A model generated the notes under the pieces. That model saw only the letters and a program-made list of their open reading frames with translations. It was not told the origin of the DNA and ran no database searches. From Acaryochloris marina S15 (GTDB lineage: Bacteria > Cyanobacteriota > Cyanobacteriia > Thermosynechococcales > Thermosynechococcaceae), in assembly GCF_018336915.1 (NCBI RefSeq), contig NZ_CP064923.1, positions 3,900,001-3,932,000 of the forward strand: a stretch of 32,000 nt of DNA, in the 5' to 3' direction. Positions 4,086 through 20,544 of this stretch are shown here, one piece after another. The translations under genes were made by a program, and so were the position numbers. Position 1 is the stretch's first letter. Every line of letters starts with the position of its first letter.

Positions 4086-5189
4086 ATGGAATCCTCAGTT
4101 GGAAAACAAGACTATCCCTGGTACGCAGGGAATAGTCGCTTAATTGCACCCTCTGCTTCAGGAAGATGGTTAGCAGCCCATATTCTCCAAGCTGCCATTA
4201 TTATGTTTTGGGTAGGGCTCAACACCCTATCTGAATTACAGGTGTTTGACCCCAGTATTGCCATGTACGATCAGGGATTAGTGTTGATTCCTCATATGGC
4301 AGCAGAAGGGATTGGTGTAGGTCCAGGAGGAGTCGTTACCGATACATACCCCTATTTGGCCATTGCCTTAGTGCATTGGGTCGCGAGTATCGTTCTACTA
4401 TTTGGTGGCTATTATCACCTCGCCGTGGGTCCGTCTGACCTGTCCAAAGGAGGCCGAGGCAATACGAAACAGTTTGCGTTTGACTGGGATGATCCAAAGC
4501 AGTTGGGTTATATCTTGGGCAATCACCTCCTGTTTATCGGATTTGCTTCACTCATGTTTGCAGGCTGGATGATCAATCACGGTATTTATGACCCCACCAT
4601 AGGGGACGTTCAAGCTATCACCCCCACTGTTGAGAATTTCACCCACATCTACAAATATGGTTGGTCTACGCCTGGATTTAATCCATTTTTTATCGATAAT
4701 TTAGGTGATTTAGCCGCAGGGCATATCTTAATCGGTTTATTCGATATTATCGGTGGAATTTGGCACATTAATGTCACCCCCTTCAGTTGGGAACAACAGC
4801 TGGGAGCCCGGCGAGATAACTATAGTGCAGATGGATTGATCGGCTTATCCCTAGGAGCCGTTGCCATCATGGGATTCATTTCCGCCTATTTCTGCGCGGT
4901 TAATACGTTTGTCTATCCCGTTGAATTCTACGGTGCGGCCCTGGAAGTGAAATTTAATATTGCCCCTTACTTCAAGGACTCTGTTGAATTAGGAGATGGT
5001 GTATACAGCTCCCGAGCTTGGTTATCCAATGTGACTTACTATGTCGGCTTCTACTGCTTGCAGGGCCATCTATTCCATAGCCTAAGGGCCATGGGCGTCA
5101 AGTTTGAGAATCTTCCCCAAGCACTTAGCGCAGCCTTCAAAGTTGAGTCTTCACAACCGGTGGAAACTCCGCAACCCACTGAAGAATAA
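4086..5189 (+). CDS. CP43/IsiA/Pcb-family chlorophyll-binding antenna protein, divergent, with an acidic C-terminal tail
   Basis: YPWYAGNSRL, PHMAAEGIGVG, ALVHWVASIVLLFGGYYHL, ILGNHLLFIG, AAGHILIGLFDIIGGIWHI, VYPVEFYG, SSRAWLSNVTYYVGFYCLQGHLFHSLRAMG parallel the six-helix IsiA/Pcb pattern. There is no large CP43-type lumenal loop E. The tail is KVESSQPVETPQPTEE. Confidence 0.85.
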   Translation: MESSVGKQDYPWYAGNSRLIAPSASGRWLAAHILQAAIIMFWVGLNTLSELQVFDPSIAMYDQGLVLIPHMAAEGIGVGPGGVVTDTYPYLAIALVHWVASIVLLFGGYYHLAVGPSDLSKGGRGNTKQFAFDWDDPKQLGYILGNHLLFIGFASLMFAGWMINHGIYDPTIGDVQAITPTVENFTHIYKYGWSTPGFNPFFIDNLGDLAAGHILIGLFDIIGGIWHINVTPFSWEQQLGARRDNYSADGLIGLSLGAVAIMGFISAYFCAVNTFVYPVEFYGAALEVKFNIAPYFKDSVELGDGVYSSRAWLSNVTYYVGFYCLQGHLFHSLRAMGVKFENLPQALSAAFKVESSQPVETPQPTEE

Positions 5190-9861: not shown

Positions 9862-10252
9862 GGGGCTGTAACGGTTTCGACGTTTTAGCAAACGTAGCCT
9901 CATGATTCAGGCCGAGAGTGAGTCGTCTCTCGCAAATAAAAGGCTCAAAACATCGTACATGCGAACAACATCGTATCTTTCGCTCGTCAGCGCACGGCTA
10001 CTGCTGTTGCCTAAAAAAACCTAACTTGGTTTGAGCATCTGTAGATTGACTCCGTTAATTTCTATAGATAACCCCCAACGGATGCACCATTAGGGTTTCT
10101 CAGTTGTCTCTACTGGTAAAGACTTTCAACTAAGCATCCCATCGTCCGGGATAAGTGGCGATTCCCGCTTTGAGGATTAGAAAAGCTAAGCCTGTGAATG
10201 AATGGGGAGCTAATAGCTAGGGCGGACACGGGTTCGACTCCCGTCAGCTCCA
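9862..10252 (+). ncRNA. ssrA: tmRNA (SsrA), standard one-piece form
   Basis: The 5' end GGGGCUGUAACGGUUUCGACG pairs with the 3' end CAGCUCC-A (G3:U pair present). T-arm is GGGUUCGACUCCCG. Tag reading frame 9961-10014 is GCG AAC AAC AUC GUA..., giving ANNIVSFARQRTATAVA then UAA. CCA is not encoded. Confidence 0.95.
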
Positions 10253-10894
10253 TTAATCAGTAATTTAATAGCGTTGTGTAGCTTACCTTAACCCCACTGA
10301 GGTGGAGGGCCTTGTGTATTTTTAAGCCCTGCTTTAACCCAGTTTGTCTATTGAGTAGGGTTGAACTTCAAATAGCATTAGTAAATCAGGAGAGTTTCAC
10401 TTTTTGGGTAGGAAAATAAATTCTCTAGTTTTACGTGCTTCAGCCACTATAAAATCAATGGGTTTGAGCGCAATCTGAATATTCCCTCAAAAAGGTAACA
10501 CACTCCAAATCCTATTCATAACGACAGACATCAGCTTGCTTGTCACATTCCTTAATCTGGGTAGTCTAGCTGTTTTATCTAAGATTTATAACTATGATTA
10601 GCTTAACCACAAAATTTTTAGTGTTGATTTCCATGTCAGCATCCAAATAGCATTCGGAGAAGATTTGTAGCGGTTACCTAACCAACATCCAGGCATAAGG
10701 CTAAGGTTGCTATCTGCTACTATCTAACCCTTTCCCCCTTTTTTGTTTAATTTTCTACACAAAGTGTAAGCATTTTTCTGATATAGCCATCTTTTGCCGA
10801 TCTATGGGCATAATTTAAGCAAGCTATGGTTTATCCCATAGCTTCTGGTTCGATTTTGGAATTAGACCGAACCTGATTTCGTTAATAAGGGAAC

Positions 10895-10930
10895 TATCCC
10901 CTGTCTCTGAGTGCGGCAGGGGATATTTTT
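10895..10930 (+). terminator. Intrinsic terminator in the ORF-free tract (candidate sRNA 3' end)
   Basis: UAUCCCCUG, 13-nt loop, CAGGGGAUA (9-bp perfect stem) followed by UUUUU. Preceded by two further hairpins (10821-10844 and 10847-10873). Confidence 0.6.
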
Positions 10931-11081
10931 ATGTCAAAAACCCCGTAAAGGTCCTATCGAAAAAGATCTTAGCAATATGTTCTTCCAGGCTAAAGTTACA
11001 CATCTAAAGAAAAAGTTTTCTTTTTCCTAGGAATGGGAATACTGAAATTAGCTTATCTAAATTGGTTAGAACGTTGATTAT

Positions 11082-11123
11082 CACTCGCGCACTTCGGTTG
11101 GTTTGCGCGAGTGTTTTTATTTT
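11082..11123 (+). terminator. Intrinsic terminator in the ORF-free tract (second candidate sRNA 3' end)
   Basis: CACUCGCGCA, 12-nt loop, UGCGCGAGUG (10-bp GC-rich perfect stem) followed by UUUUUAUUUU. Confidence 0.7.
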
Positions 11124-11560
11124 AAAATTAGGGTAAATGCAGGCTCAACCTCAATCTAGTAGCTCATGTCATAACATCATGAATAATGCCTGAAGCTTTG
11201 CTTGAGAAGCGCAAATTGTGGCGAAGGCTAATGAATCCTAGCGATTTAACCCATCCTTTCCAAAACACTTGACTTCTAATCAGTGAGTTGCAGTGAAACT
11301 CCAGCTGTCTCCCGAGTCATACAACAGCTTGAACAGCCTATGCAGTCGTCAATATTTTAGGTCTCTTCGATGTCTTGGCTGGCACAACTTTGATCTGCAT
11401 TAGCATCAAGACATCTTGGGCTAGCAGTTGAGATTATGTACGCTCTCAATAGTTCACCCACAACAGTCCTATAGCAGTGCTACAAAGGAATCCTAATAAG
11501 GTTATTATTCTCTCAGATGCAAAACGATAACGCTCGACCTAAGAGGCTGTTTGAGAAGTT

Positions 11561-11692
11561 TTAGCATTTTTCAGCGAGCCTTCGAATCATCACCACATAA
11601 ACAAGAGCTTCAGCCGTTCTAGTCAAGACTTCATAATCTTTATTGAGATATCGGGACCACAACCCCCATCCAAACGTCCGCTCTACAATCCA
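11561..11692 (-). pseudogene. IS5-family (ISL2/IS1031-like) transposase C-terminal remnant
   Basis: My minus-strand translation is WIVERTFGWGLWSRYLNKDYEVLTRTAEALVYVVMIRRLAEKC*, the conserved DDE transposase C-terminus (W.VERTF.WL...RRL.KDYE). A TGA lies immediately upstream (..LVPK*WIVERTF), and the frame further upstream is broken by several stops. Confidence 0.7.
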
Positions 11693-11858
11693 TCATTTTG
11701 GAACAAGCTTTGAACCCCGCTAGATTGTCTGAACGCTTGATCAATCTGAATTTGGACTAGGTGGAGATGTCTCCCGGCAAAAGCGTCTCAGTCCCACTCA
11801 ACGGCTGAGCATAAGTTTTTCTGGTGTTAAGTGAGGATCTATAGCAGTCGCCACTCTA

Positions 11859-12778
11859 ATTAGGACGCTAGGTACAACACATGTTCCATTGCTTCTCTAA
11901 GTGAACCGAAGTGCTCTAATTGGTGTCTAATTCGACTTTTAATCCAAGCCCACGACCGTTCAATCTTATTCAAATCAGGAGAATAGGGTGGCAAGTACCA
12001 CACTTCACATCCTGCGGCTTCTACCAGTTGCTCAATTCGCCCTCCCTTATGGAAGGTGGCATTATCAATGACTAACTTCTGCCCCGGTTTGAGCATCGGT
12101 ATCAAACAAGTCTCAAGCCAAATTTCAAATACGGTGCGATTGCAAGCCCCTTCAATCGTGAACGGGGCCATGAGCTGCTTTCCTCTCAAAGCTGCAATCA
12201 TATTGACTCGTCCACTTCTGCTACCAGACTTTAAAGCATAGACCCGCTCACCTTTGGGACCATAGCCATAGTCATACTCATCTCGATTGTCCATCCCTGA
12301 CTCGTCAGCATAGACGATATCGTCTGGGTCTACTGTTGTTAACTTTTGGACGAACTCAGCCCGTTTGTGCTCATCACGTTGGCGGTAGCCATAGGTCTTT
12401 TTTTTCGAGTAAATCCAATATTCTTCAGCGCTCTTGAAATAGTACGCTCACTGATTTGCCCCTCCCACAACTCGGCCATCTGAGCTTGGGTTTTATAGCG
12501 ATGTTCTTGAGCAAAAGCTCGAAACTTGTCCCAGTCTGTGATTTTGTGGCTATGGCCAAGGTGTTGTCTAGGGATGGGATGAAGATCACCTGTTTCTGCT
12601 TTGAGACGTTGCCATAGATTAATGGTGTTACGACTGATATGAAAGGTGTCACTCGCTTCTGAGGGAGGCATGCCATCAAGTTCAATAGCATCGATCACTT
12701 TGCAACGTAAATCGTAGCTGTAGATTTTAGGCATCCATTGAAAGACATAACAGTATCTCTAGTTTATTATGTCCTGAA
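11859..12778 (-). mobile_element. IS630-family insertion sequence (boundaries approximate)
   Basis: Encloses the two-frame IS630 transposase. The ends carry an imperfect inverted repeat (ATTAGGAC... at 11859 versus the reverse complement TTCAGGAC... at 12778), each abutting a TA dinucleotide as expected for IS630 TA duplication. Confidence 0.6.
11860..12734 (-). CDS. IS630-family transposase OrfAB, made by -1 programmed frameshift
   Basis: OrfA (12339-12734) has an HTH: MPKIYSYDLRCKVIDAIE...NTINLWQRLKAETGDL. OrfB (to 11860) reads ...VYADESGMDNRDEYDYGYGPKGERV...VIDNATFHKGG...YLPPYSPDLNKIERSW, a DD(35)E motif. The frames join at A_AAA_AAG (T-run 12398-12405 on the + strand), giving ...FTRKKKTYGYRQRDEHKRAEF... 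Confidence 0.85.
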
Positions 12779-12864
12779 TAAAATGGCGCTTGCTATAAGT
12801 AGCGGCTTTTTGAGGCATTTGGGCTTTCCTTCGTTTTGAAACTCGTTTTTTAGCCATTGGGTAT

Positions 12865-12934
12865 CGAGTTTTGGATGCTTGAGATTCGTCTTGGGCACAT
12901 CCGCGAGATTTACCGCGAGTTTTGGGTACTTGAG
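12865..12934. repeat. Two 19-nt direct repeats spaced 51 bp start to start (17/19 identical)
   Basis: CGAGTTTTGGATGCTTGAG (12865-12883) and CGAGTTTTGGGTACTTGAG (12916-12934), in the fragment between the IS630 element and the MITE. Confidence 0.6.
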
Positions 12935-12974
12935 CAGGTGCTCCAATCGCCACAATAATAATTGGGAATAACCT

Positions 12975-13096
12975 GGGAGCATGTCACCTTTGCAAATGCA
13001 CAAAGTTTGGAATTAAAAATTTGATGCCTGAAAGCAAGGCTAGCAAGGATTTTTGAGATGAGTATAAATACTAGCTTACAAAGGTGACATGCTCCC
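12975..13096. mobile_element. MITE (122 bp, non-autonomous)
   Basis: Perfect 18-bp terminal inverted repeats: GGGAGCATGTCACCTTTG (12975-12992) and CAAAGGTGACATGCTCCC (13079-13096). Flanked by a perfect 9-bp direct repeat GAATAACCT (12966-12974 and 13097-13105). No coding capacity. Confidence 0.8.
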
Positions 13097-13158
13097 GAAT
13101 AACCTTCTCTCGAGAAAGAGGACACTCCAAGACAAGGGCACAGGAGATAGGTAGGAAG

Positions 13159-14644
13159 GGGCGTATTTAGCGGATCGGGGATGCCTTAGTTTTCGGAATG
13201 GTCACCTCTGGGAATAAGGAGTCAAACCGTTCATTGACCCAGGCAATTCTCAAGATCAGTAAATGGTTGAAACCATCCTCACTCCAGCGCATGCCAACTC
13301 CCTTAAAGCGCTGCTGAATCAACCACTTGCATGCACTTTCAACCATTCCTGACCCGAGAGGAATCTGTTGCTGTTCAAAGTGCCGATAACGGATGTGGTT
13401 ATGATGGCGTTGGAAATAAGCCTGCACCTGGAGCAACGTTGAAAAAGACTTTCCCGTTAACAGTTGTGAGTGAATCAATATCGTCAAGGACCGTAATACA
13501 AGTAGGTGTTGCCCGTGTCGCAATTGGTGTCGCCAGTGCCGGAACCAGGCTTGGGCTTGAGCAGAGCGGGCATCTCCAAACATCGCTTTAGTTGCTCGTG
13601 CCAGATGGCCTGCTGAATGAAAAAAGTCGAGGACTGCCACAGCACAATGAGAGAACAAGGTGCGATAGACTCGCCAGAAGCCTCGTCCCCCATCACTGAG
13701 CCAGATGACTTTTGGAGCAGATTCAAAGTCTTGTTTGTGAGCTTCGAGTTGAAGTAAAGGGATGAACTGGTCGATATCGCCCAATACTGCCACCAGTCTT
13801 CGACGCAGTAATTGGGGGACCTCCTTTTTAGCTCGGGTAACCCGTGTTCCCAGGCGAGCTAAGATGGCGACTTTGACTTCTCGCCACTGGATTTTTCCCT
13901 TGGGTGAGTTCGGGGTGGGGCGAAAGGGGACCATCACACCATCGGCGGCAATGGCCAAAGGTAGAGCAGATAACATCTCTGAAATCGCTTCACAAGGGGC
14001 CTGAGTCCCTGATGATTGAGCGTTGAGTTGAGCTTCTAATTCCTGCTGAGCTTTGTTACCCACGGATTGCACCCAGTTCCACAAACTGGATGGACTCACG
14101 GATAGACCACTCCACTGACCCAGCATCCAACTGGCCAGTTCATAGGGCATGAACAGACTCAACAAGCAGCCCAGACGCACCAGTTCTTCGCTGCTGTGCT
14201 GATAGGGGGCAATCCCAATGGCTTGATCCAGGGGAGTCAACAGACTGCCTGGACATCCTTTGGGACAACGGCCCACCCGTCGCTTTCAAGAGATAGTGCC
14301 TACCAGTGTCTGCATCTGACGAGATTCCCATCCCTTCGAATGTAAGCGGGTTCCGCAGGTAGTACATACAGGCCATACAAATACTGCTTTCGCGCGCCTT
14401 GAGAGTTCATCCTCCAGAAGACAGCGAGCTAGAAACAAGCCCATTTGCAGAACGATATAAACCATCTGACTCAGGCTGGTTGATACTTTGAGTGCTTCAG
14501 TTTGTTCTAGAAATTCGTCATGGGCTAGCACGGTTAGCAATTGCGATGGTAGGGTCATGATAGTTTTTTGGTTCGGGTACAGGATCTATTGTCCTTGACC
14601 CGTTTTTCTTTGAGCCATGCATCCCCGATCCTTTGCTTACGCCC
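13159..14644 (-). mobile_element. ISKra4-family-like insertion sequence (1486 bp)
   Basis: 26-bp imperfect TIRs: GGGCGTATTTAGCGGATCGGGGATGC at 13159, and reverse complement GGGCGTAAGCAAAGGATCGGGGATGC ending at 14644 (20/26 identical). Flanked by a perfect 9-bp TSD GGTAGGAAG (13150-13158 and 14645-14653). Confidence 0.85.
13167..14558 (-). pseudogene. ISKra4-family transposase interrupted by one in-frame TGA
   Basis: The 90-aa and 369-aa tracked ORFs are in the same frame, separated only by a TGA at 14286-14288: ...VWPVCTTCGTRLHSKGWESRQMQTLVGTIS*KRRVGRCPKGCPG... (zinc-finger region). The stop sits where I would expect Trp (TGG). The C-terminal part reads DGGRGFW...LDFFH...GSGMVESACKWLIQQRFKGVGMRWS. 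Confidence 0.8.
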
Positions 14645-15069
14645 GGTAGGAAGTAGATTTATGAGGTCTGTTGAACTAACGGATCTTCAGCTATGTTAAT
14701 AGTTGCTTAATTATTCTATTCCTTAAGACTTCTATATCCAACTAAAAAACAGGTAATTTACAGTATTTTTACGGTGAAGGGATTTAATATTTGGCAACTT
14801 GAACTTATGGTATAGCCTTTATTGAATAACGCTTACATCCCTCTTACCCCCTAAAAACTGGCTTATATTCCTGTTTTCTTAAGCTTTCGAAAAATCTATT
14901 TATACCTCCGTATCAATTCGGATCTCATTTCTTCAGATGCCCGGTTAAGGTATAGCTACTGGTACAAGAGCTTTGATATTTCTCAAGTTTAGAAACAGTG
15001 AGAGAAGTAGGCTATACCCTTCTCTCTAGCTACCATTCACTCCCATCCATCACATATCATTTGTCGCAA

Positions 15070-15945
15070 ATGTATCTAGTCCGTATTGGCAAAGTCCTCA
15101 CTCAAAAAGGACTGATTAGTGACTTCCAATTACAACAAGCCCTCCAAATCCAAACACAGACTGGACAAAAGCTAGGGGAAATACTGATTCAGCAAGGTCA
15201 TATTTCTCAATTTCAGTTGAAGCAAGTTCTAGTTGAGCAACGGTGTCGGAATTTACTAGCTTGTTCTCTACTAACCCTCAGTACCCTTGGACCCACTTTC
15301 TCTATCACACCTCCTCAATCTGCCCGTTCCCAATCTGCTGAAAACCGGAAGGTTCTGCGTGTGGAATCTGAATCTTATGTTGGTGGTCCCCTAAGCTCTA
15401 CTTCCCAAGTGTCCCAGTCAGGTCCACAGGCTCTTACTATTGCAGCTAGTCATACCCCAACAATTGCCTCTCCCTTGCAAGGATTTTGCCACCCTCTTGA
15501 TGGAAGAGGATATCTGTCTCAAGGAATTCGTGGCAAAACTCATCAAAATCGAATGGAATATGCCTACGATATTGCCAGTTCAATTGGTACCCCTGTTTAT
15601 GCGATGCGGGCAGGGCGGATAATCAGATTACAAGACAAATATCCAGATACAGGAGGGACTCGAGCGAATGCCTCCAAGTTTAACTATGTTTGGATTGAAC
15701 ATGAACATGGCTATCGCTCGGCATATGCCCACTTACAGCAAGGTTTCCGACAACGGGTTCAACTTAAAGCTGGGGACTGGGTCAAAGCAGGACAGCTTAT
15801 TGGGTACAGCGGAAATTCGGGATGGTCTTCAGGTCCGCATTTACATGTTGAAGTGCAAAGTCAAGGCAATCGAGCAAGATTTTCTCAAACCGTTCCATTT
15901 CAGATTTCAGGTTCTTGCAGCACATTAGCTCGTAAAGCTAGCTAA
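15070..15945 (+). CDS. M23-family peptidase with an N-terminal tandem MshEN/T2SSE_N-type motif and a central hydrophobic segment
   Basis: N-terminus is RIGKVLTQKGLISDFQLQQALQIQ-TQTGQ-KLGEILIQQGHISQFQLKQVLVEQ. Then LLACSLLTLSTLGPTFSI. C-terminus is M23: YDIASSIGTPVYAMRAGRI, IEHEHGYRSAYAHL, GYSGNSGWSSGPHLHVEV. I prefer the ATG at 15070 (MYLVRIGK...) over the tracked GTG at 14998. Confidence 0.8.
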   Translation: MYLVRIGKVLTQKGLISDFQLQQALQIQTQTGQKLGEILIQQGHISQFQLKQVLVEQRCRNLLACSLLTLSTLGPTFSITPPQSARSQSAENRKVLRVESESYVGGPLSSTSQVSQSGPQALTIAASHTPTIASPLQGFCHPLDGRGYLSQGIRGKTHQNRMEYAYDIASSIGTPVYAMRAGRIIRLQDKYPDTGGTRANASKFNYVWIEHEHGYRSAYAHLQQGFRQRVQLKAGDWVKAGQLIGYSGNSGWSSGPHLHVEVQSQGNRARFSQTVPFQISGSCSTLARKAS

Positions 15946-18394: not shown

Positions 18395-18721
18395 ATGCGT
18401 CCCAACATAACAACCATACAACCGAATAATATTTTGGATGGAGTCACCGGTACGGTCTTTCGTCAAGAAGTGACAGCTGCAATTGAGGCAGGTGCCGATA
18501 TTGTTTTGGTGGATTGTCAAGATATTTCATTTATGGACAGCTCTGGTCTAGGTGCTTTGGTTCTTGCCCTAAAATTTATTCGGGCAGCCGAACGCAAGCT
18601 TGTGCTTTGTTCACTCAATCAGCAGGTTAAGACACTTTTTCAGCTCACTGACATTGCTCAAGTGTTTCAGATCTACGAGAATCGGCAACACTTTGAACAA
18701 AGTGGTCTGCTAGATTCTTGA
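18395..18721 (+). CDS. STAS-domain anti-sigma-factor antagonist (SpoIIAA/RsbV-like)
   Basis: IVLVDCQDISFMDSSGLGALVLALKFIRAAERKLVLCSLNQQVKTLFQLTDIAQVFQIY, with the conserved phosphorylatable Ser in DSSGLG. Confidence 0.85.
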   Translation: MRPNITTIQPNNILDGVTGTVFRQEVTAAIEAGADIVLVDCQDISFMDSSGLGALVLALKFIRAAERKLVLCSLNQQVKTLFQLTDIAQVFQIYENRQHFEQSGLLDS

Positions 18722-18749
18722 AATCCTGTTTTTTCTAGAGTGGTGGTAC

Positions 18750-19877
18750 TCAAGGAAAGACAACTTGCATCAAGGCTAAGTCATCGGTAAAGTGCTGATG
18801 CTCACAGCATTCTTGTACTTGGTCCAAAATGGTTTCGATGGTGGGGGCTCCTGTTTGATGAAGCTGTTGGAGCAACTGGGAAAATCCTTCTAGCCCCAGC
18901 AGTTGATGGTTAGTATTAGGACTTTCGTAAATCCCATCACTAAAGATGTAGAGCGTTTGATGTGGCGTGATGTTACAGCTCTGACTTTGGTAGGTGAATT
19001 CTGCAAACATTCCTAAGGGAAGTCCAGGTGTTTTTAAGGGTTGTACCCCTGGTTCTAGGGCTGACATTAATAGGGCTGGAGGATGACCGGCACTAGCATA
19101 TACCAACTCCTGGCGTGAGTGATGATACACCCCATACCAAATGGTGAGGTATTTGGGGTTTTCGGGACTCATGGTGAATCGTTGATTGAGAGCATGCAAC
19201 ACTTCATGGGGGTGCTGGTAGTTGATGCCTGGGAATGCTTGCGATCGCAACATATTTAAGATCGATACCGAAGGTAAGGCTGCCCCTAAACCATGCCCCG
19301 ATACGTCTAAGAGATACAAAATTAAAATATCTGGGGTTAACCAATAGTAATCAAAGCAATCCCCACCTAATTGACTAGACGGAATAAACCGAGACTGGAT
19401 TTGAATCGGCAATTGTAATGGTGCAGGCAAAATTGAGCGAACATATTGGGCAGCCTCTGCCAACTCTGCTTCCAGCTTTTGTGTTTGCTCTTGTAAGTCC
19501 TGGTTTAAGTGATAGAGCCTTAGTCCTGCTCGCACACGAGCCTGCAGTTCACTCATGTCAATGGGTTTGGTTAAAAATTCGTCGGCACCCGCATTAAGTC
19601 CGGCAATTCGATCCTCTAGGTCAGACCGAGACGTTAGCAAAATAAAAAAGGTGGCGGAAAGTTTAGGATTCGATTTTAACTGCTGACAAACGCCAATCCC
19701 ATCTAATAGAGGCATCATCCAATCGCAAATGATTAAGGCTGGGCAGAGTTGCTGTGCCTTTGAGAGCCCTTCTTGACCATTACTGGCGATGGTAACCTGA
19801 TACCCTTGTTTCTCGAGTGTACGGCGTAAAAGGAGCTGTGTAATGGGATCATCATCGATGATCAGAATTTTCACCAT
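18750..19877 (-). CDS. Response-regulator receiver fused to a PP2C/SpoIIE-type phosphatase (RsbU-like)
   Basis: REC domain: MVKILIIDDDPITQ...LIICDWMMPLLDG...LLTSRSD...FLTKP. A coiled-coil linker follows. PP2C domain: GGDCFDYYWL, LLDVSGHGLGAA, ASAGHPP, IFSDGIYE, DDLALMQV. Confidence 0.88.
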   Translation of the reverse strand: MVKILIIDDDPITQLLLRRTLEKQGYQVTIASNGQEGLSKAQQLCPALIICDWMMPLLDGIGVCQQLKSNPKLSATFFILLTSRSDLEDRIAGLNAGADEFLTKPIDMSELQARVRAGLRLYHLNQDLQEQTQKLEAELAEAAQYVRSILPAPLQLPIQIQSRFIPSSQLGGDCFDYYWLTPDILILYLLDVSGHGLGAALPSVSILNMLRSQAFPGINYQHPHEVLHALNQRFTMSPENPKYLTIWYGVYHHSRQELVYASAGHPPALLMSALEPGVQPLKTPGLPLGMFAEFTYQSQSCNITPHQTLYIFSDGIYESPNTNHQLLGLEGFSQLLQQLHQTGAPTIETILDQVQECCEHQHFTDDLALMQVVFP

Positions 19878-20109
19878 AGATGTTTAACACGGCCATATTC
19901 GAGTATCTATTGTGAATTCATTCGCCAGGGCGAACGCTAATCCACACTGCTCAAGTTTAGCAAGGAGATAATCTCTGCCTAGAAAGCTAATTTTTGGGGA
20001 ATGAGTTCCCTATAATTAATTTAAAGACGCCTGGTTGAATAACAACACCTTTTCTCATGCCAATGGCCTTGGACCCATGCAGTTGGAGGGACTGATCTCC
20101 TCATAGCAG

Positions 20110-20544
20110 ATGCCAAAGCATTATCATCTCAGTGTTAATTCTGACCTCAATAACCTGACTCAAGTTCTTGACTGGTTTCAGCAGCTGCACCCTACTCGAG
20201 TGGCAGAACAGGAGTGGCTGGAATGCCAGATAGCCCTGGCAGAAGGATTTACAAATGCGGTTAGCCATGCCCATCAAGCACTACCACCCAATACCCCCAT
20301 CCAGTTAGAGCTGGGGATTGAGCTAGATCATGTGGAGATTCGTATTTGGGACCAGGGTCCTATCTTCGACCTACGTCAATATTTACAGCATCACCCTACT
20401 TTCCCTAGCCAAGATATGGGCGGTGGTCGCGGGTTGCTGCTGATCAATCGGATTGCTGATAACGTTCAATATCGAAGAATAGACAATTGCCAGAACTGTC
20501 TTTCTATCGTTAAATACCTGTCTTTGAATGAGCCTATCCACTGA
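20110..20544 (+). CDS. Anti-sigma regulatory factor, serine protein kinase (RsbW/SpoIIAB-like HATPase)
   Basis: N-box LAEGFTNAVSHAH, G1 IRIWDQGPIFD, G2 GGGRGLLLINRIADNVQY. 144 aa. Confidence 0.8.
   Translation: MPKHYHLSVNSDLNNLTQVLDWFQQLHPTRVAEQEWLECQIALAEGFTNAVSHAHQALPPNTPIQLELGIELDHVEIRIWDQGPIFDLRQYLQHHPTFPSQDMGGGRGLLLINRIADNVQYRRIDNCQNCLSIVKYLSLNEPIH

What the first reader, a model, noticed from the sequence alone, without database searches (positions are those of the whole stretch)
15070..15945. M23 peptidase fused to a tandem MshEN-type c-di-GMP-binding motif: a possible second-messenger-gated cell-wall hydrolase
The first 57 residues fit the published MshEN consensus almost position for position. 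That consensus is two 24-residue motifs, RLGxx(L/V/I)(L/V/I)xxG(L/V/I)(L/V/I)xxxxLxxxLxxQ, joined by a 5-residue spacer. Here the sequence is RIGKVLTQKGLISDFQLQQALQIQ + TQTGQ + KLGEILIQQGHISQFQLKQVLVEQ.

A moderately hydrophobic segment (LLACSLLTLSTLGPTFSI) and a Ser/Thr/Pro/Gln-rich (low-complexity) linker follow. The C-terminus is an M23 domain with an intact HLH motif. Its first metal motif is atypical: EYAYD where HxxxD is expected, with the nearest His five residues further upstream.

The predicted topology puts a cytoplasmic c-di-GMP sensor on a periplasmic peptidoglycan endopeptidase or amidase activator. I do not know of a characterised example.
Basis: partly seen in the sequence, partly recalled or inferred. 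Interest (0 to 1): 0.72.

Follow-up and report, generated by a model that had tools for sequence, protein, structure and literature searches.

The report
Catalogued c-di-GMP sensor fused to M23 peptidase
This Acaryochloris gene really does join a cyclic-di-GMP-binding module to a cell-wall-cutting M23 peptidase through a weak membrane segment, but the founding MshEN paper of 2016 already listed this fusion, with this gene's ortholog as its example, and nobody has tested its function.

Summary
Window 15070-15945 (+) encodes a 291-aa protein. Residues 5-57 match NCBIfam's MshE-related c-di-GMP motif model (60.2 bits, cutoff 38). A 21-residue uncharged segment and a disordered linker of about 50 residues follow. 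The C-terminus is an M23 domain (Pfam E=3.6e-22) with ExxxD in place of HxxxD.

The architecture is not new. Wang et al. 2016 (Supplementary Table 4) list "MshEN_N - Peptidase_M23" with A. marina AM1_1153 as the example, which by sequence is the ortholog of this gene. It was never tested.

- The fusion is a cyanobacterial family with more than 100 full-length members.
- E163 covaries with R154, while H158 is invariant, so the first zinc ligand has probably moved (Hx8D).
- C140 and C283 form an invariant pair, and relatives carry plain signal peptides. Both argue that the M23 domain lies in the periplasm.
- The linker holds a conserved [VIL]GG motif.
- In 9 of 14 main-clade loci the gene abuts cyanoexosortase A and/or HpsJ-like genes. 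The window copy is a displaced paralog next to the HU gene.

Direct allosteric gating across a disordered linker is unlikely. Control of deployment is more plausible.

The parts
15070..15945 (+). Complete ORF of 291 aa plus stop: MshEN_N, hydrophobic segment, linker, M23. An in-frame GTG at 14998 would add 24 residues.
   Evidence: Homologs P0002-P0005 and P0007-P0009 start at MY[LP]VR. P0001 is annotated 18 residues longer.
15082..15240 (+). MshEN_N c-di-GMP-binding module, residues 5-57. Motif 1 is residues 5-28, the spacer is 29-33 (TQTGQ), and motif 2 is 34-57. Deviations from consensus: I6, T11, K34, H44.
   Evidence: NF053729 scores 60.2 bits against a cutoff of 38. Gapless alignment to MshE 9-61 of 5HTL. 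AF2 predicts four helices at pLDDT 94-97. G7, L10, G14, I16, L21, L25, Q28, L35, G36, L39, G43, L54 and Q57 are conserved in at least 90% of 119 homologs.
15241..15315 (+). RCRN connector (residues 58-61) plus uncharged segment LLACSLLTLSTLGPTFSITPP (residues 62-82). Probably a signal-anchor or signal-peptide-like segment.
   Evidence: KD19 1.43, Hessa sum +3.3, TopPred-like 1.69. In the family the uncharged run is exactly 17 aa in 78/119 members, with K+R of 1.86 on the N flank and 1.07 on the C flank. AF2 helix 47-71 runs continuously from the last MshEN helix.
15316..15459 (+). Disordered Ser/Pro/Ala/Gln/Thr-rich linker, residues 83-130.
   Evidence: pLDDT below 50 for residues 70-122. Linker length varies from 32 to 94 aa across the family.
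15376..15387 (+). Conserved short motif Y-V-G-G (residues 103-106) inside the linker. Family pattern is [VILMAF]GG, typically D-A-V-G-G.
   Evidence: Present in 80/119 linkers against 6.2 +/- 2.1 in shuffled linkers. G105 and G106 are the most conserved linker columns.
15460..15918 (+). M23 (LytM-type) domain, the family-conserved block of residues 131-283 (Pfam match 162-268).
   Evidence: PF01551 E=3.6e-22. Foldseek probability 1.0 to ShyA, DipM, Csd1/2, LytM and lysostaphin.
15541..15570 (+). Atypical first metal motif H158-QNRM-E163-YAY-D167. E163 sits where the canonical zinc-binding His is. H158 is the candidate displaced ligand.
   Evidence: E163 aligns to the His of HxxxD in lysostaphin and TagE. 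Position 163 is E in 104 and A in 15 sequences, and covaries perfectly with R154 (R in 104, N in 15). H158 and D167 are invariant in 119/119.
15730..15732 (+). H221, which by motif position (my inference) corresponds to the catalytic His in the YxHL motif (LytM H260).
   Evidence: Invariant in 119/119. It sits in the conserved block aligned to M23 structures.
15838..15846 (+). H257-L-H259, the HxH motif.
   Evidence: Invariant. Aligned to the GPHLH motif of solved M23 enzymes.
15487..15489 (+). C140, in GFCHPL. Partner of C283 (15916-15918). Putative disulfide.
   Evidence: C140/C283 co-occur in 119/119. Among 50%-identity cluster representatives, 7/7 with GFC have a C-terminal Cys and 0/13 without it do.
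13159..14644 (-). Context only: an IS element with 26-nt terminal inverted repeats, ending 425 nt upstream of the start codon. It is part of a 3.26-kb insertion (11431-14691) that is absent from A. marina AP026075.

Best explanation
The gene encodes a small envelope protein with its N-terminus in the cytoplasm and its C-terminus in the periplasm.

Shown by the tools:
- Residues 5-57 are an MshEN_N module.
- The C-terminal 160 residues are an M23/LytM-fold domain that keeps D167, H221, H257 and H259.
- A weakly hydrophobic segment and a disordered linker lie between the two.

Inferred:
1. The MshEN_N module binds one c-di-GMP in the cytoplasm. It is held directly against the membrane, because its last helix runs into the hydrophobic segment.
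2. The segment acts as a Sec signal-anchor. In some relatives it may be a cleavable signal peptide.
3. The M23 domain sits in the periplasm on a flexible tether of about 50 residues that can reach the peptidoglycan layer. It is stapled by a C140-C283 disulfide.
4. It is a zinc endopeptidase whose first His ligand has moved five residues upstream (H158, giving Hx8D). E163 forms a salt bridge with R154.
5. Because the tether is disordered, c-di-GMP probably does not switch catalysis allosterically. It more likely controls deployment: where the anchor sits, which partner it binds, its oligomeric state or turnover, or its export and release.

The window copy is a paralog so far seen only in Acaryochloris genomes and unlabelled metagenome contigs. 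It is the AM1_1153 type and lies next to the HU gene. It belongs to a cyanobacterial family whose core members are encoded immediately beside cyanoexosortase A and HpsJ-like genes. The ancestral role is therefore probably local wall remodelling, or protein processing, coupled to c-di-GMP-controlled cell-surface or exopolysaccharide export.
For: Domains.

AF2 model: a four-helix N-module at pLDDT 94-97, helix 47-71 continuous into the hydrophobic segment, and pLDDT below 50 for residues 70-122.

Family conservation: the MshEN contact positions and the M23 residues are conserved across 119 full-length homologs.

Topology:
- C140/C283 are invariant and appear only together.
- The same M23 subfamily occurs behind a classical signal peptide (P0136, MFRQGLLLSTAVLSLISTVASA|QP), behind N-terminal TM anchors (P0124, P0125, P0133, P0134), and inside giant secreted multidomain proteins (L005, L006, L009).
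- The uncharged run keeps a length of 17 residues and shows a positive-inside bias.

Metal site:
- R154/E163 covary as 104 R-E and 15 N-A, while H158 is 119/119.
- H158 is kept while position 163 varies (Q, A, E) in relatives L005-L007.

Family function:
- CrtA (TIGR03763, 202-214 bits), the CrtA-associated protein (TIGR04153) and HpsJ-like A (NF050013) lie directly downstream on the same strand in L086, L091, L098, L088 and L093.
- HpsJ-like A alone lies downstream in L085, L092 and L090.
- A distant exosortase lies just upstream in L003.

Precedent: the bitopic M23 protein RgsM works with the c-di-GMP phosphodiesterase RgsP (PMC6107284).
Against: - No binding, topology or activity data exist for any family member.
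- T11 and H44 are polar residues at two hydrophobic consensus positions, so the query fails the paper's own relaxed regex. 73/119 relatives pass it in tandem.
- Wang et al. report a more than 10-fold loss of affinity on mutating conserved hydrophobic residues.
- The hydrophobic segment scores below genuine TM helices from the same window and overlaps the score of a soluble protein. AF2 models only residues 62-71 as helix, with falling confidence.
- The canonical HxxxD His is missing, and I could not check the H158 geometry because no coordinates are returned. hhalign against LasA aligned only the C-terminal half.
- The window copy has no exosortase or HpsJ neighbour. The family-level context may not apply to it.
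Confidence: 0.5

Rival explanations
1. The protein is a non-catalytic LytM factor. The M23 domain has lost its first zinc ligand and works like EnvC, NlpD or DipM, as an activator or scaffold for an amidase or other autolysin. The cytoplasmic MshEN_N module sets when and where this happens.
For: E (or A) replaces the canonical zinc-binding His. Foldseek hits to the degenerate LytM domains of DipM and EnvC are as good as those to active enzymes (TMt 0.66-0.75). NCBIfam lists ActS, NlpD and EnvC among the weak hits.
Against: D167, H221, H257 and H259 are invariant in 119/119, and an extra invariant His (H158) lies next to the site. From my own knowledge, degenerate LytM activators have lost most of these residues. 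Scores against the activator equivalogs are far below their cutoffs (ActS 29.6/375, NlpD 24.8/311, EnvC 19.7/270).
Confidence: 0.2
2. The N-terminal module of this paralog no longer binds c-di-GMP. It is a degenerate MshEN_N-like four-helix module kept as a cytoplasmic anchor or protein-interaction handle.
For: T11 and H44 break one hydrophobic position in each half-motif, and the literal strict and relaxed regexes fail. Wang et al. note that many MshEN domains have lost binding and that single hydrophobic changes cost more than 10-fold in affinity. [quoted passage not shown]
Against: - The HMM score is well above its curated cutoff.
- The Gly residues whose mutation abolished c-di-GMP-induced stabilisation in MshE (G11 and G40) are present as G7 and G36, as are the Arg/Lys, Leu and Gln positions.
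- MshE itself has Phe at the H44 position.
- The T. thermophilus PilF module, deposited as a 'c-di-GMP binding domain', deviates more than this one, including a one-residue deletion.
- Wang et al. list AM1_1153 in the same column as MshE, NfrB and EpsG. I did not see the column header.
- The module is conserved within the paralog clade.
Confidence: 0.25
3. c-di-GMP gates export. The hydrophobic segment is a cleavable Sec signal peptide and MshEN_N is a ligand-binding N-terminal extension of it. c-di-GMP then decides whether the hydrolase is targeted, translocated or cleaved, and the mature enzyme is a soluble periplasmic protein.
For: The uncharged run is 17 aa, shorter than the roughly 20 residues I take from my own knowledge as typical of a TM helix. 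It has a basic n-region (RxRN), a Pro or Gly helix breaker, and in many relatives a -3/-1 small-residue site followed by Gln (P0121 APKVALA|QP, P0122 PQVAVA|QV, P0123 PQLAAA|QA, P0126 PQVANA|QT, and main-clade LPKVMA|Q). Relative P0136 has the same pattern as an ordinary N-terminal signal peptide.
Against: One large subclade has Pro at +1 (KLIAP, KLVAP), which from my own knowledge blocks signal peptidase I. The query's own c-region (PTFSITPPQSARSQSA) has Gln at -3 of both Ala sites. I know of no precedent for a ligand-binding signal-peptide extension. No cleavage predictor was available.
Confidence: 0.15
4. The segment does not span the membrane, so the whole protein is cytoplasmic or peripheral and the M23 domain acts on a cytoplasmic target.
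For: The hydrophobicity is marginal. AF2 confidence in the segment is low.
Against: The invariant covarying Cys pair, the signal-peptide- and anchor-bearing close relatives, the secreted multidomain relatives, and the conserved length and charge asymmetry of the segment all argue against it. I know of no cytoplasmic M23 substrate.
Confidence: 0.07

Closest known systems
A. marina MBIC11017 AM1_1153 (ABW26190, 'NlpD'), the example of 'MshEN_N - Peptidase_M23' in Wang et al. 2016, Nat Commun 7:12481, Supplementary Tables 3-4
   Same: Same gene family and same paralog. The printed N-terminus (MYLVRIGKVLTQKGLISDFQLQQALQIQKQTGQKLGEILIQQGHISQLQLKQVLVEQRCRNFLACSLLTLSTLGP, allowing for OCR noise) matches P0001, which is 92% identical to the window protein. 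The domain call is also the same.
   Different: The paper only catalogues it, with taxa given as 'Acaryochloris, Crinalium'. It reports no binding assay, topology, active-site analysis or gene context for it. The term searches of the supplement found AM1_1153 only in the alignment and in Supplementary Tables 3-4, not in the ITC table.
V. cholerae MshE N-terminal domain (PDB 5HTL), and the MshEN domain of NfrB
   Same: A tandem 24-residue motif with a 5-residue spacer, aligned without gaps. The mode of use is also shared: c-di-GMP binds a small helical module attached to an envelope-biogenesis enzyme.
   Different: MshE and NfrB carry MshEN_N plus MshEN_C on cytoplasmic ATPase or glycosyltransferase domains. 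Here there is only MshEN_N, and the output domain lies on the other side of the membrane. T11 and H44 deviate from consensus.
Active M23B endopeptidases: ShyA and MepM, LytM, lysostaphin, Csd1-3
   Same: The fold matches (Foldseek probability 1.0). The D of HxxxD, the catalytic His and the HxH motif are all kept.
   Different: The first zinc ligand is not at the canonical position: the motif is ExxxD, with an invariant His five residues upstream. There is an extra Cys pair. The domain has a cytoplasmic sensor and membrane tether instead of LysM, SH3b or coiled-coil targeting domains.
LasA and beta-lytic protease (M23A)
   Same: In LasA the first His ligand (H23) also lies far upstream of the Asp (D36), giving Hx12D. 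The ligand numbering is from my memory of Spencer et al. 2010. The sequence I used was verified as identical to 3IT5. This shows that the fold tolerates a displaced first His.
   Different: No alignment of the N-terminal half could be obtained. LasA is a secreted pro-enzyme.
S. meliloti RgsM with RgsP (PMC6107284)
   Same: RgsM is a bitopic protein with a short cytoplasmic tail, one TM segment and a periplasmic M23 domain. It is functionally tied to c-di-GMP signalling.
   Different: The c-di-GMP domains sit on a separate protein (RgsP, a phosphodiesterase), and RgsM has a canonical HxxxD. Here the receptor module is fused to the peptidase itself.
LapD and Alg44, c-di-GMP receptors that signal across the inner membrane (own knowledge)
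   Same: The logic is shared: a cytoplasmic c-di-GMP-binding domain, a membrane span and a periplasmic output.
   Different: The domains are unrelated (degenerate GGDEF-EAL with HAMP in LapD, PilZ in Alg44). Those proteins have structured periplasmic domains that are coupled rigidly to the membrane span. Here a disordered linker intervenes.
EpsG (MshEN_N - AAA_31 tyrosine kinase) of exosortase-type EPS loci
   Same: EpsG is an MshEN_N-bearing component that Wang et al. list. The query's N-terminus weakly matches TIGR03029 EpsG at residues 4-61. From my own knowledge, the founding EpsG lies in the Methylobacillus eps cluster that also holds the founding exosortase EpsH. This parallels the CrtA adjacency found here.
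   Different: The output domain and the phylum differ. I did not test the EpsG-EpsH linkage here.

Membership tests
MshEN_N c-di-GMP-binding domain (Wang et al. 2016) | Match to a curated profile of the 53-residue module | tested here: met
   NF053729 scores 60.2 bits against a cutoff of 38, covering residues 5-57 as profile positions 1-53. phmmer to 5HTL gives E=7e-9. Pfam T2SSE_N gave no hit at E<=1. In my understanding that model mainly covers the MshEN_C part.
MshEN_N c-di-GMP-binding domain (Wang et al. 2016) | Two 24-residue motifs RLGxx(L/V/I)(L/V/I)xxG(L/V/I)(L/V/I)xxxxLxxxLxxQ joined by a 5-residue spacer | tested here: inconclusive
   The spacer is exactly 5 residues and 20/22 specified positions are satisfied (counting I6 and K34 as conservative). 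T11 and H44 break one hydrophobic position in each half, so both the literal strict and relaxed regexes fail. The Gly equivalents of G11 and G40 are present as G7 and G36.
MshEN_N c-di-GMP-binding domain (Wang et al. 2016) | Four-helix fold | tested here: met
   AF2 predicts helices 6-12, 18-31, 35-41 and 47-71 at pLDDT 94-97.
MshEN_N c-di-GMP-binding domain (Wang et al. 2016) | Binds c-di-GMP at low-micromolar or better affinity | not testable with these tools
   This needs ITC, DRaCALA or MST. The ortholog did not turn up in the paper's ITC table in my term searches.
Peptidase M23 (LytM fold) | Profile match and fold | tested here: met
   PF01551 scores 78.8 bits against a cutoff of 28.7. 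Foldseek gives probability 1.0 to ShyA, DipM, Csd, LytM and lysostaphin.
Peptidase M23 (catalytically active M23B) | HxxxD motif (first His and Asp zinc ligands) | tested here: not met
   The sequence is E163-YAY-D167. E163 aligns to the His of lysostaphin and TagE. Across the family the position is E in 104 and A in 15 sequences. D167 is invariant. H158 is invariant and could substitute, but the geometry could not be checked.
Peptidase M23 (catalytically active M23B) | HxH motif and the catalytic His of YxHL | tested here: met
   H257, H259 and H221 are invariant in 119/119.
Peptidase M23 (catalytically active M23B) | Zinc-dependent cleavage of peptidoglycan cross-links | not testable with these tools
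   This needs a zymogram or muropeptide analysis.
Degenerate LytM amidase activators (EnvC, NlpD, ActS, DipM) | Loss of most metal and catalytic residues, and an equivalog-level match | tested here: not met
   Four of the five canonical residues are invariant. Equivalog scores are far below the cutoffs: ActS 29.6/375, NlpD 24.8/311, EnvC 19.7/270, DipM 32/900.
Bitopic N-in/C-out envelope protein | One membrane-spanning or signal segment between the two domains | tested here: inconclusive
   TopPred-like 1.69 (above the classical 1.0 cutoff but within the range of one soluble protein in this window), KD19 1.43, Hessa sum +3.3. The comparative evidence favours export of the M23 domain. No TMHMM or SignalP was available.
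Cyanoexosortase A (CrtA) system neighbourhood | Encoded next to CrtA, the CrtA-associated protein or HpsJ-like A | tested here: not met
   The window copy and its orthologs (L081, L095, L097) lie next to the HU and cdsA genes with no such genes nearby. The feature is met by 9 of 14 main-clade relatives.

The most novel reading that the evidence does not exclude
MshEN_N here is a ligand-binding N-terminal extension of a Sec signal or anchor sequence. Cytoplasmic c-di-GMP would then decide whether an M23 hydrolase is exported, retained or released, possibly through the conserved [VIL]GG site in the tether. In the main clade this would be the missing second-messenger input to the cyanoexosortase A / HpsJ cell-surface sorting pathway. 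That would be the first second-messenger receptor built into a cell-wall hydrolase, and the first regulatory link for cyanobacterial exosortases.
Probability: 0.15. Interest if true: 0.85.

Novelty: already known. Interest (0 to 1): 0.5.

Why it matters
Cyanobacteria encode many c-di-GMP synthases and hydrolases but have very few known effectors. A 2025 PNAS paper states that c-di-GMP binding by the cyanobacterial MshEN domains it discusses has never been tested, and that hardly any other cyanobacterial targets have been characterised.

This family is a compact, testable candidate effector. It would connect the sessile/motile second messenger directly to the cell wall. The gene-neighbourhood evidence found here would also connect it to the cyanoexosortase A / HpsJ surface-export system, whose regulation I found no paper addressing.

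If c-di-GMP binding and periplasmic hydrolase activity are both confirmed, this would be a new way of transmitting a cytoplasmic nucleotide signal to the periplasm. The M23 domain itself is also of interest to enzymologists, because the canonical first zinc ligand has been replaced and a different His is invariant.

Tried and rejected
- Pfam T2SSE_N gave no hit. The sub-threshold DUF4388/PATAN hit (17.1 bits against a cutoff of 25) adds nothing.
- hhalign of the family profile against LasA, intended to test whether H158 corresponds to LasA H23, aligned only the C-terminal half. It was uninformative.
- The structure tool returns no coordinates, so I could not measure the H158-D167-H259 geometry or the C140-C283 distance.
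- The genome-contig scan was saturated by the generic GPHLH pattern and returned only 5 full-length family loci.
- The metagenome scan with specific patterns returned only 7 loci.
- I found no riboswitch or other Rfam family upstream of the gene.
- The promoter and terminator scans were at background level.
- No GGDEF, EAL, amidase, pilus or exosortase gene turned up among the window's ORFs of at least 100 aa. An operon-based function for this copy is therefore rejected.
- A lipobox reading of L-L-A-C65 is rejected. The Cys lies at the start of the hydrophobic run and is not conserved (A in 54, T in 34, C in 12 sequences).
- Literature searches for MshEN with M23, for AM1_1153, and for exosortase with c-di-GMP in cyanobacteria found nothing relevant in main texts.
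Full report
**1. What is there**

Window 15070-15945 (+) is an intact ORF of 291 codons, from an ATG to a TAA. An in-frame GTG at 14998 could add 24 residues. Seven close homologs begin exactly at MY[LP]VR, so the ATG is the likelier start. At DNA level the surrounding window is about 86-87% identical to Acaryochloris marina AP026075. The protein is 92% identical to an A. marina 'M23 family metallopeptidase'.

**2. The N-terminal module**

- Residues 5-57 cover all 53 positions of NCBIfam NF053729, 'cyclic di-GMP-binding domain, MshE-related'. The score is 60.2 bits against a curated cutoff of 38.
- The same residues align without a gap to residues 9-61 of V. cholerae MshE from the c-di-GMP complex 5HTL. 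They also match the PilF modules that were deposited as c-di-GMP-binding domains.
- AF2 models four helices here at pLDDT 94-97.
- Position by position, 20 of the 22 specified consensus residues are satisfied and the spacer is 5 residues.
- The two exceptions are T11 and H44, each at a hydrophobic position. As a result neither half passes the literal strict or relaxed regex of Wang et al., whereas 73 of 119 relatives pass the tandem relaxed pattern.
- MshE itself has Phe at the H44 position.
- The two glycines whose mutation abolished c-di-GMP-induced stabilisation of MshE are present as G7 and G36.
- I rate c-di-GMP binding as likely, at roughly two in three, but not certain for this paralog.

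**3. The middle of the protein**

- Four residues (RCRN) follow the MshEN module, then a 21-residue uncharged stretch.
- Its hydrophobicity is marginal. The Kyte-Doolittle 19-residue mean is 1.43 and the sum on the Hessa scale is +3.3 kcal/mol. My TopPred-style score is 1.69.
- For comparison, real TM helices encoded in this window (CdsA and the transporters) score 1.9-2.5, while soluble CoaX reaches 1.63.
- AF2 extends the last MshEN helix through residue 71 and then loses confidence. Residues 70-122 are predicted disordered.

Comparative data help with the topology:
- In 78 of 119 family members the uncharged run is exactly 17 residues. It is bracketed by R-N on the N side and by K or R on the C side, with more positive charge on the N side.
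- Cluster representatives that carry the same M23 subfamily have other things at the equivalent place. Some have a textbook N-terminal signal peptide (P0136), some have N-terminal TM anchors, and some have other N-terminal domains followed by a TM segment. The same domain also occurs inside giant secreted proteins.
- C140 and C283 are invariant in the fused family. Across representatives they appear only together: 7/7 with the first Cys have the second, against 0/13 without it. This is what a periplasmic disulfide would look like.

I therefore accept the N-in/C-out topology at about 75%.

Whether the segment is an uncleaved anchor or a cleavable signal peptide stays open:
- Several relatives end the segment in AxA|Q-like sites.
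- A large subclade has Pro at +1.
- The query's own c-region is a poor signal-peptidase site.

The linker is variable in length (32-94 residues). It contains one conserved short motif, [VILMAF]GG (YVGG in the query). The motif is present in 80/119 linkers, against about 6 expected by shuffling.

**4. The M23 domain**

- Pfam PF01551 matches at E=3.6e-22.
- Foldseek finds ShyA, DipM, Csd1/2, LytM and lysostaphin at probability 1.0.
- D167, H221, H257 and H259 are invariant.
- E163 occupies the position of the canonical first zinc-binding His, according to alignments to lysostaphin and TagE.
- Position 163 is Glu in 104 sequences and Ala in 15. It covaries perfectly with position 154, which is Arg in the 104 and Asn in the 15. 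This could reflect a single evolutionary event. It suggests that E163 forms a salt bridge rather than binding metal.
- H158 is invariant. It is also retained in the secreted relatives, where position 163 is Q, A or E.
- I infer a displaced first ligand (Hx8D). LasA is analogous with Hx12D. The LasA ligand numbering comes from my memory, and the LasA sequence I used was verified as identical to 3IT5. I could not confirm the geometry.
- The strong conservation of the remaining catalytic residues argues against an EnvC- or NlpD-type degenerate activator. Scores against those equivalogs are far below their cutoffs.

**5. Prior knowledge**

- Wang et al. 2016 (PMC5013675) list 'MshEN_N - Peptidase_M23' in Supplementary Table 4. 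The example is A. marina NlpD AM1_1153 (ABW26190), and the taxa given are 'Acaryochloris, Crinalium'.
- The AM1_1153 N-terminus printed in their alignment matches P0001, the 92%-identical homolog.
- In Supplementary Table 3, AM1_1153 stands in the same column as MshE, NfrB and EpsG. I did not see the column header.
- My term searches of the supplement did not find it in the ITC table.
- A 2025 PNAS paper states that c-di-GMP binding by the cyanobacterial MshEN domains it discusses has not been tested.
- Full-text searches found nothing on AM1_1153, or on MshEN together with M23.
- The fusion is therefore catalogued but uncharacterised.

- The fusion is a sizeable cyanobacterial family, with more than 100 full-length members at E<1e-87. 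Named sources include Acaryochloris, Altericista, Stenomitos, Thermosynechococcaceae, Leptolyngbyaceae and Synechococcales.
- It is narrow in sequence space. Only about five 50%-identity clusters carry the full architecture, one of them with two MshEN_N modules.
- The window protein belongs to a small paralog clade of 73-92% identity. These genes sit next to the HU and cdsA genes.
- The larger clade, at about 55% identity, has a different and recurrent context. On the same strand, immediately downstream, lie cyanoexosortase A (TIGR03763, 202-214 bits), the CrtA-associated protein (TIGR04153) and the HpsJ-like CrtA-associated protein (NF050013).
  - All three occur in five distinct loci.
  - HpsJ-like A alone occurs in three more.
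  - A more distant exosortase pair lies just upstream in one.
  - Five loci lack any of them.
- A divergently transcribed ORF of about 180 aa, with no family assignment, is also conserved upstream.
- I found no paper linking exosortases to c-di-GMP in cyanobacteria.

**7. Mechanism**

*Shown:* the domain identities, the conservation pattern, the predicted disorder of the tether, and the gene neighbourhoods.

*Inferred:*
- The protein sits with MshEN_N pressed against the inner face of the membrane and the M23 domain in the periplasm on a flexible tether.
- c-di-GMP binding cannot plausibly be transmitted mechanically through 50 disordered residues.
- The messenger more likely controls deployment. 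That could mean partner binding or clustering through the Ser/Thr-rich membrane segment, stability, or export and release, rather than catalysis itself.
- In the main clade the likely purpose is local wall opening, or protein processing, for CrtA/HpsJ-dependent surface export.
- The window paralog may have been recruited to another task.

*Rivals:* a non-catalytic amidase activator (0.2), a degenerate non-binding module (0.25), a cleavable ligand-gated signal peptide (0.15), and a wholly cytoplasmic protein (0.07).

**8. Verdict**

The feature is real and correctly read, and it was already catalogued in 2016 with this very ortholog as the example. It has no known function. Interest is moderate (0.5). 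It is a ready-made candidate for the acknowledged gap in cyanobacterial c-di-GMP effectors, and the exosortase linkage and the atypical metal site are new, testable leads.

Noticed in passing
L086:9013-11298, L088:8959-11297, L093:7015-9354, L091:7021-9311, L098:7596-9855: In the main clade of the family, the MshEN-M23 gene is followed on the same strand by cyanoexosortase A, the CrtA-associated protein and HpsJ-like A. In L086 and L091 the first two are fused into one protein of about 510 aa. I found no paper that mentions this linkage.
   Followed up: yes
L086:7098-7652 (-); also L091, L090, L093, L084, L098: A conserved ORF of about 180 aa is transcribed divergently from main-clade MshEN-M23 genes. 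Its copies are 39-70% identical to one another, and it has no Pfam or NCBIfam match.
   Followed up: partly
window 15376-15387 (residues 103-106): A conserved [VIL]GG motif lies inside the otherwise variable disordered linker, in 80/119 sequences against about 6 by chance. It could be a pseudo-substrate, an autoprocessing site or a docking site.
   Followed up: partly
window 10255-11860: A 1.6-kb stretch directly 3' of the tmRNA gene has no ORF of 40 aa or more on either strand. Even so, 933 nt of it are 80% identical to the equally gene-free DNA upstream of the orthologous gene in A. marina AP026075. It has no Rfam hit and no repeats.
   Followed up: partly
window 9862-10255 (+): A tmRNA (ssrA) gene with tag peptide ANNIVSFARQRTATAVA. 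In A. marina AP026075 a stretch of about 6 kb that includes an integrase fragment follows its 3' end, and that stretch is absent here.
   Followed up: partly
window 11431-14691: A 3.26-kb insertion relative to A. marina AP026075. It is made of an IS630-family element with its transposase split into two ORFs (12734-12339 HTH, 12294-11860 DDE_3) and a second IS (13159-14644, 26-nt inverted repeats) whose transposase-like ORFs have no Pfam match. It ends about 380-425 nt upstream of the M23 start codon.
   Followed up: partly
L005:71-3295, L006:521-4195, L009:2806-8055: The same M23 subfamily (GFxHPL...H..R..YA.D...YPDTGG) is embedded in giant secreted cyanobacterial proteins, some of which show subtilase-like or lipase-like sequence features by eye. 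These lack both Cys residues.
   Followed up: partly
P0016 (A. thomasi RCC1774, 397 aa): A variant carries two tandem MshEN_N modules before the hydrophobic segment and the M23 domain.
   Followed up: no
P0138, P0139, P0140: Relatives of the same M23 subfamily, including the Cys pair, carry an unrelated N-terminal region of about 90-100 aa plus a TM segment instead of MshEN_N. This suggests that the cytoplasmic sensor can be swapped.
   Followed up: no
window 18395-20544: A partner-switching module: a STAS antagonist (18395-18721), a response-regulator-PP2C (SpoIIE) phosphatase (18750-19877, minus strand) and an HATPase_c_2 anti-sigma-type kinase (20110-20544). It is syntenic in all Acaryochloris loci examined.
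   Followed up: no
window 4086-5189 (+): A 367-aa protein matches only the first 271 of 500 positions of Pfam PSII (CP43/CP47 family). I take it to be a Pcb/IsiA-type chlorophyll-binding antenna protein.
   Followed up: no
L008:24-880: The copy in a Leptolyngbyaceae MAG has an in-frame stop and a frameshift. The contig has only 1.6x coverage, so this is probably assembly error rather than a pseudogene.
   Followed up: no
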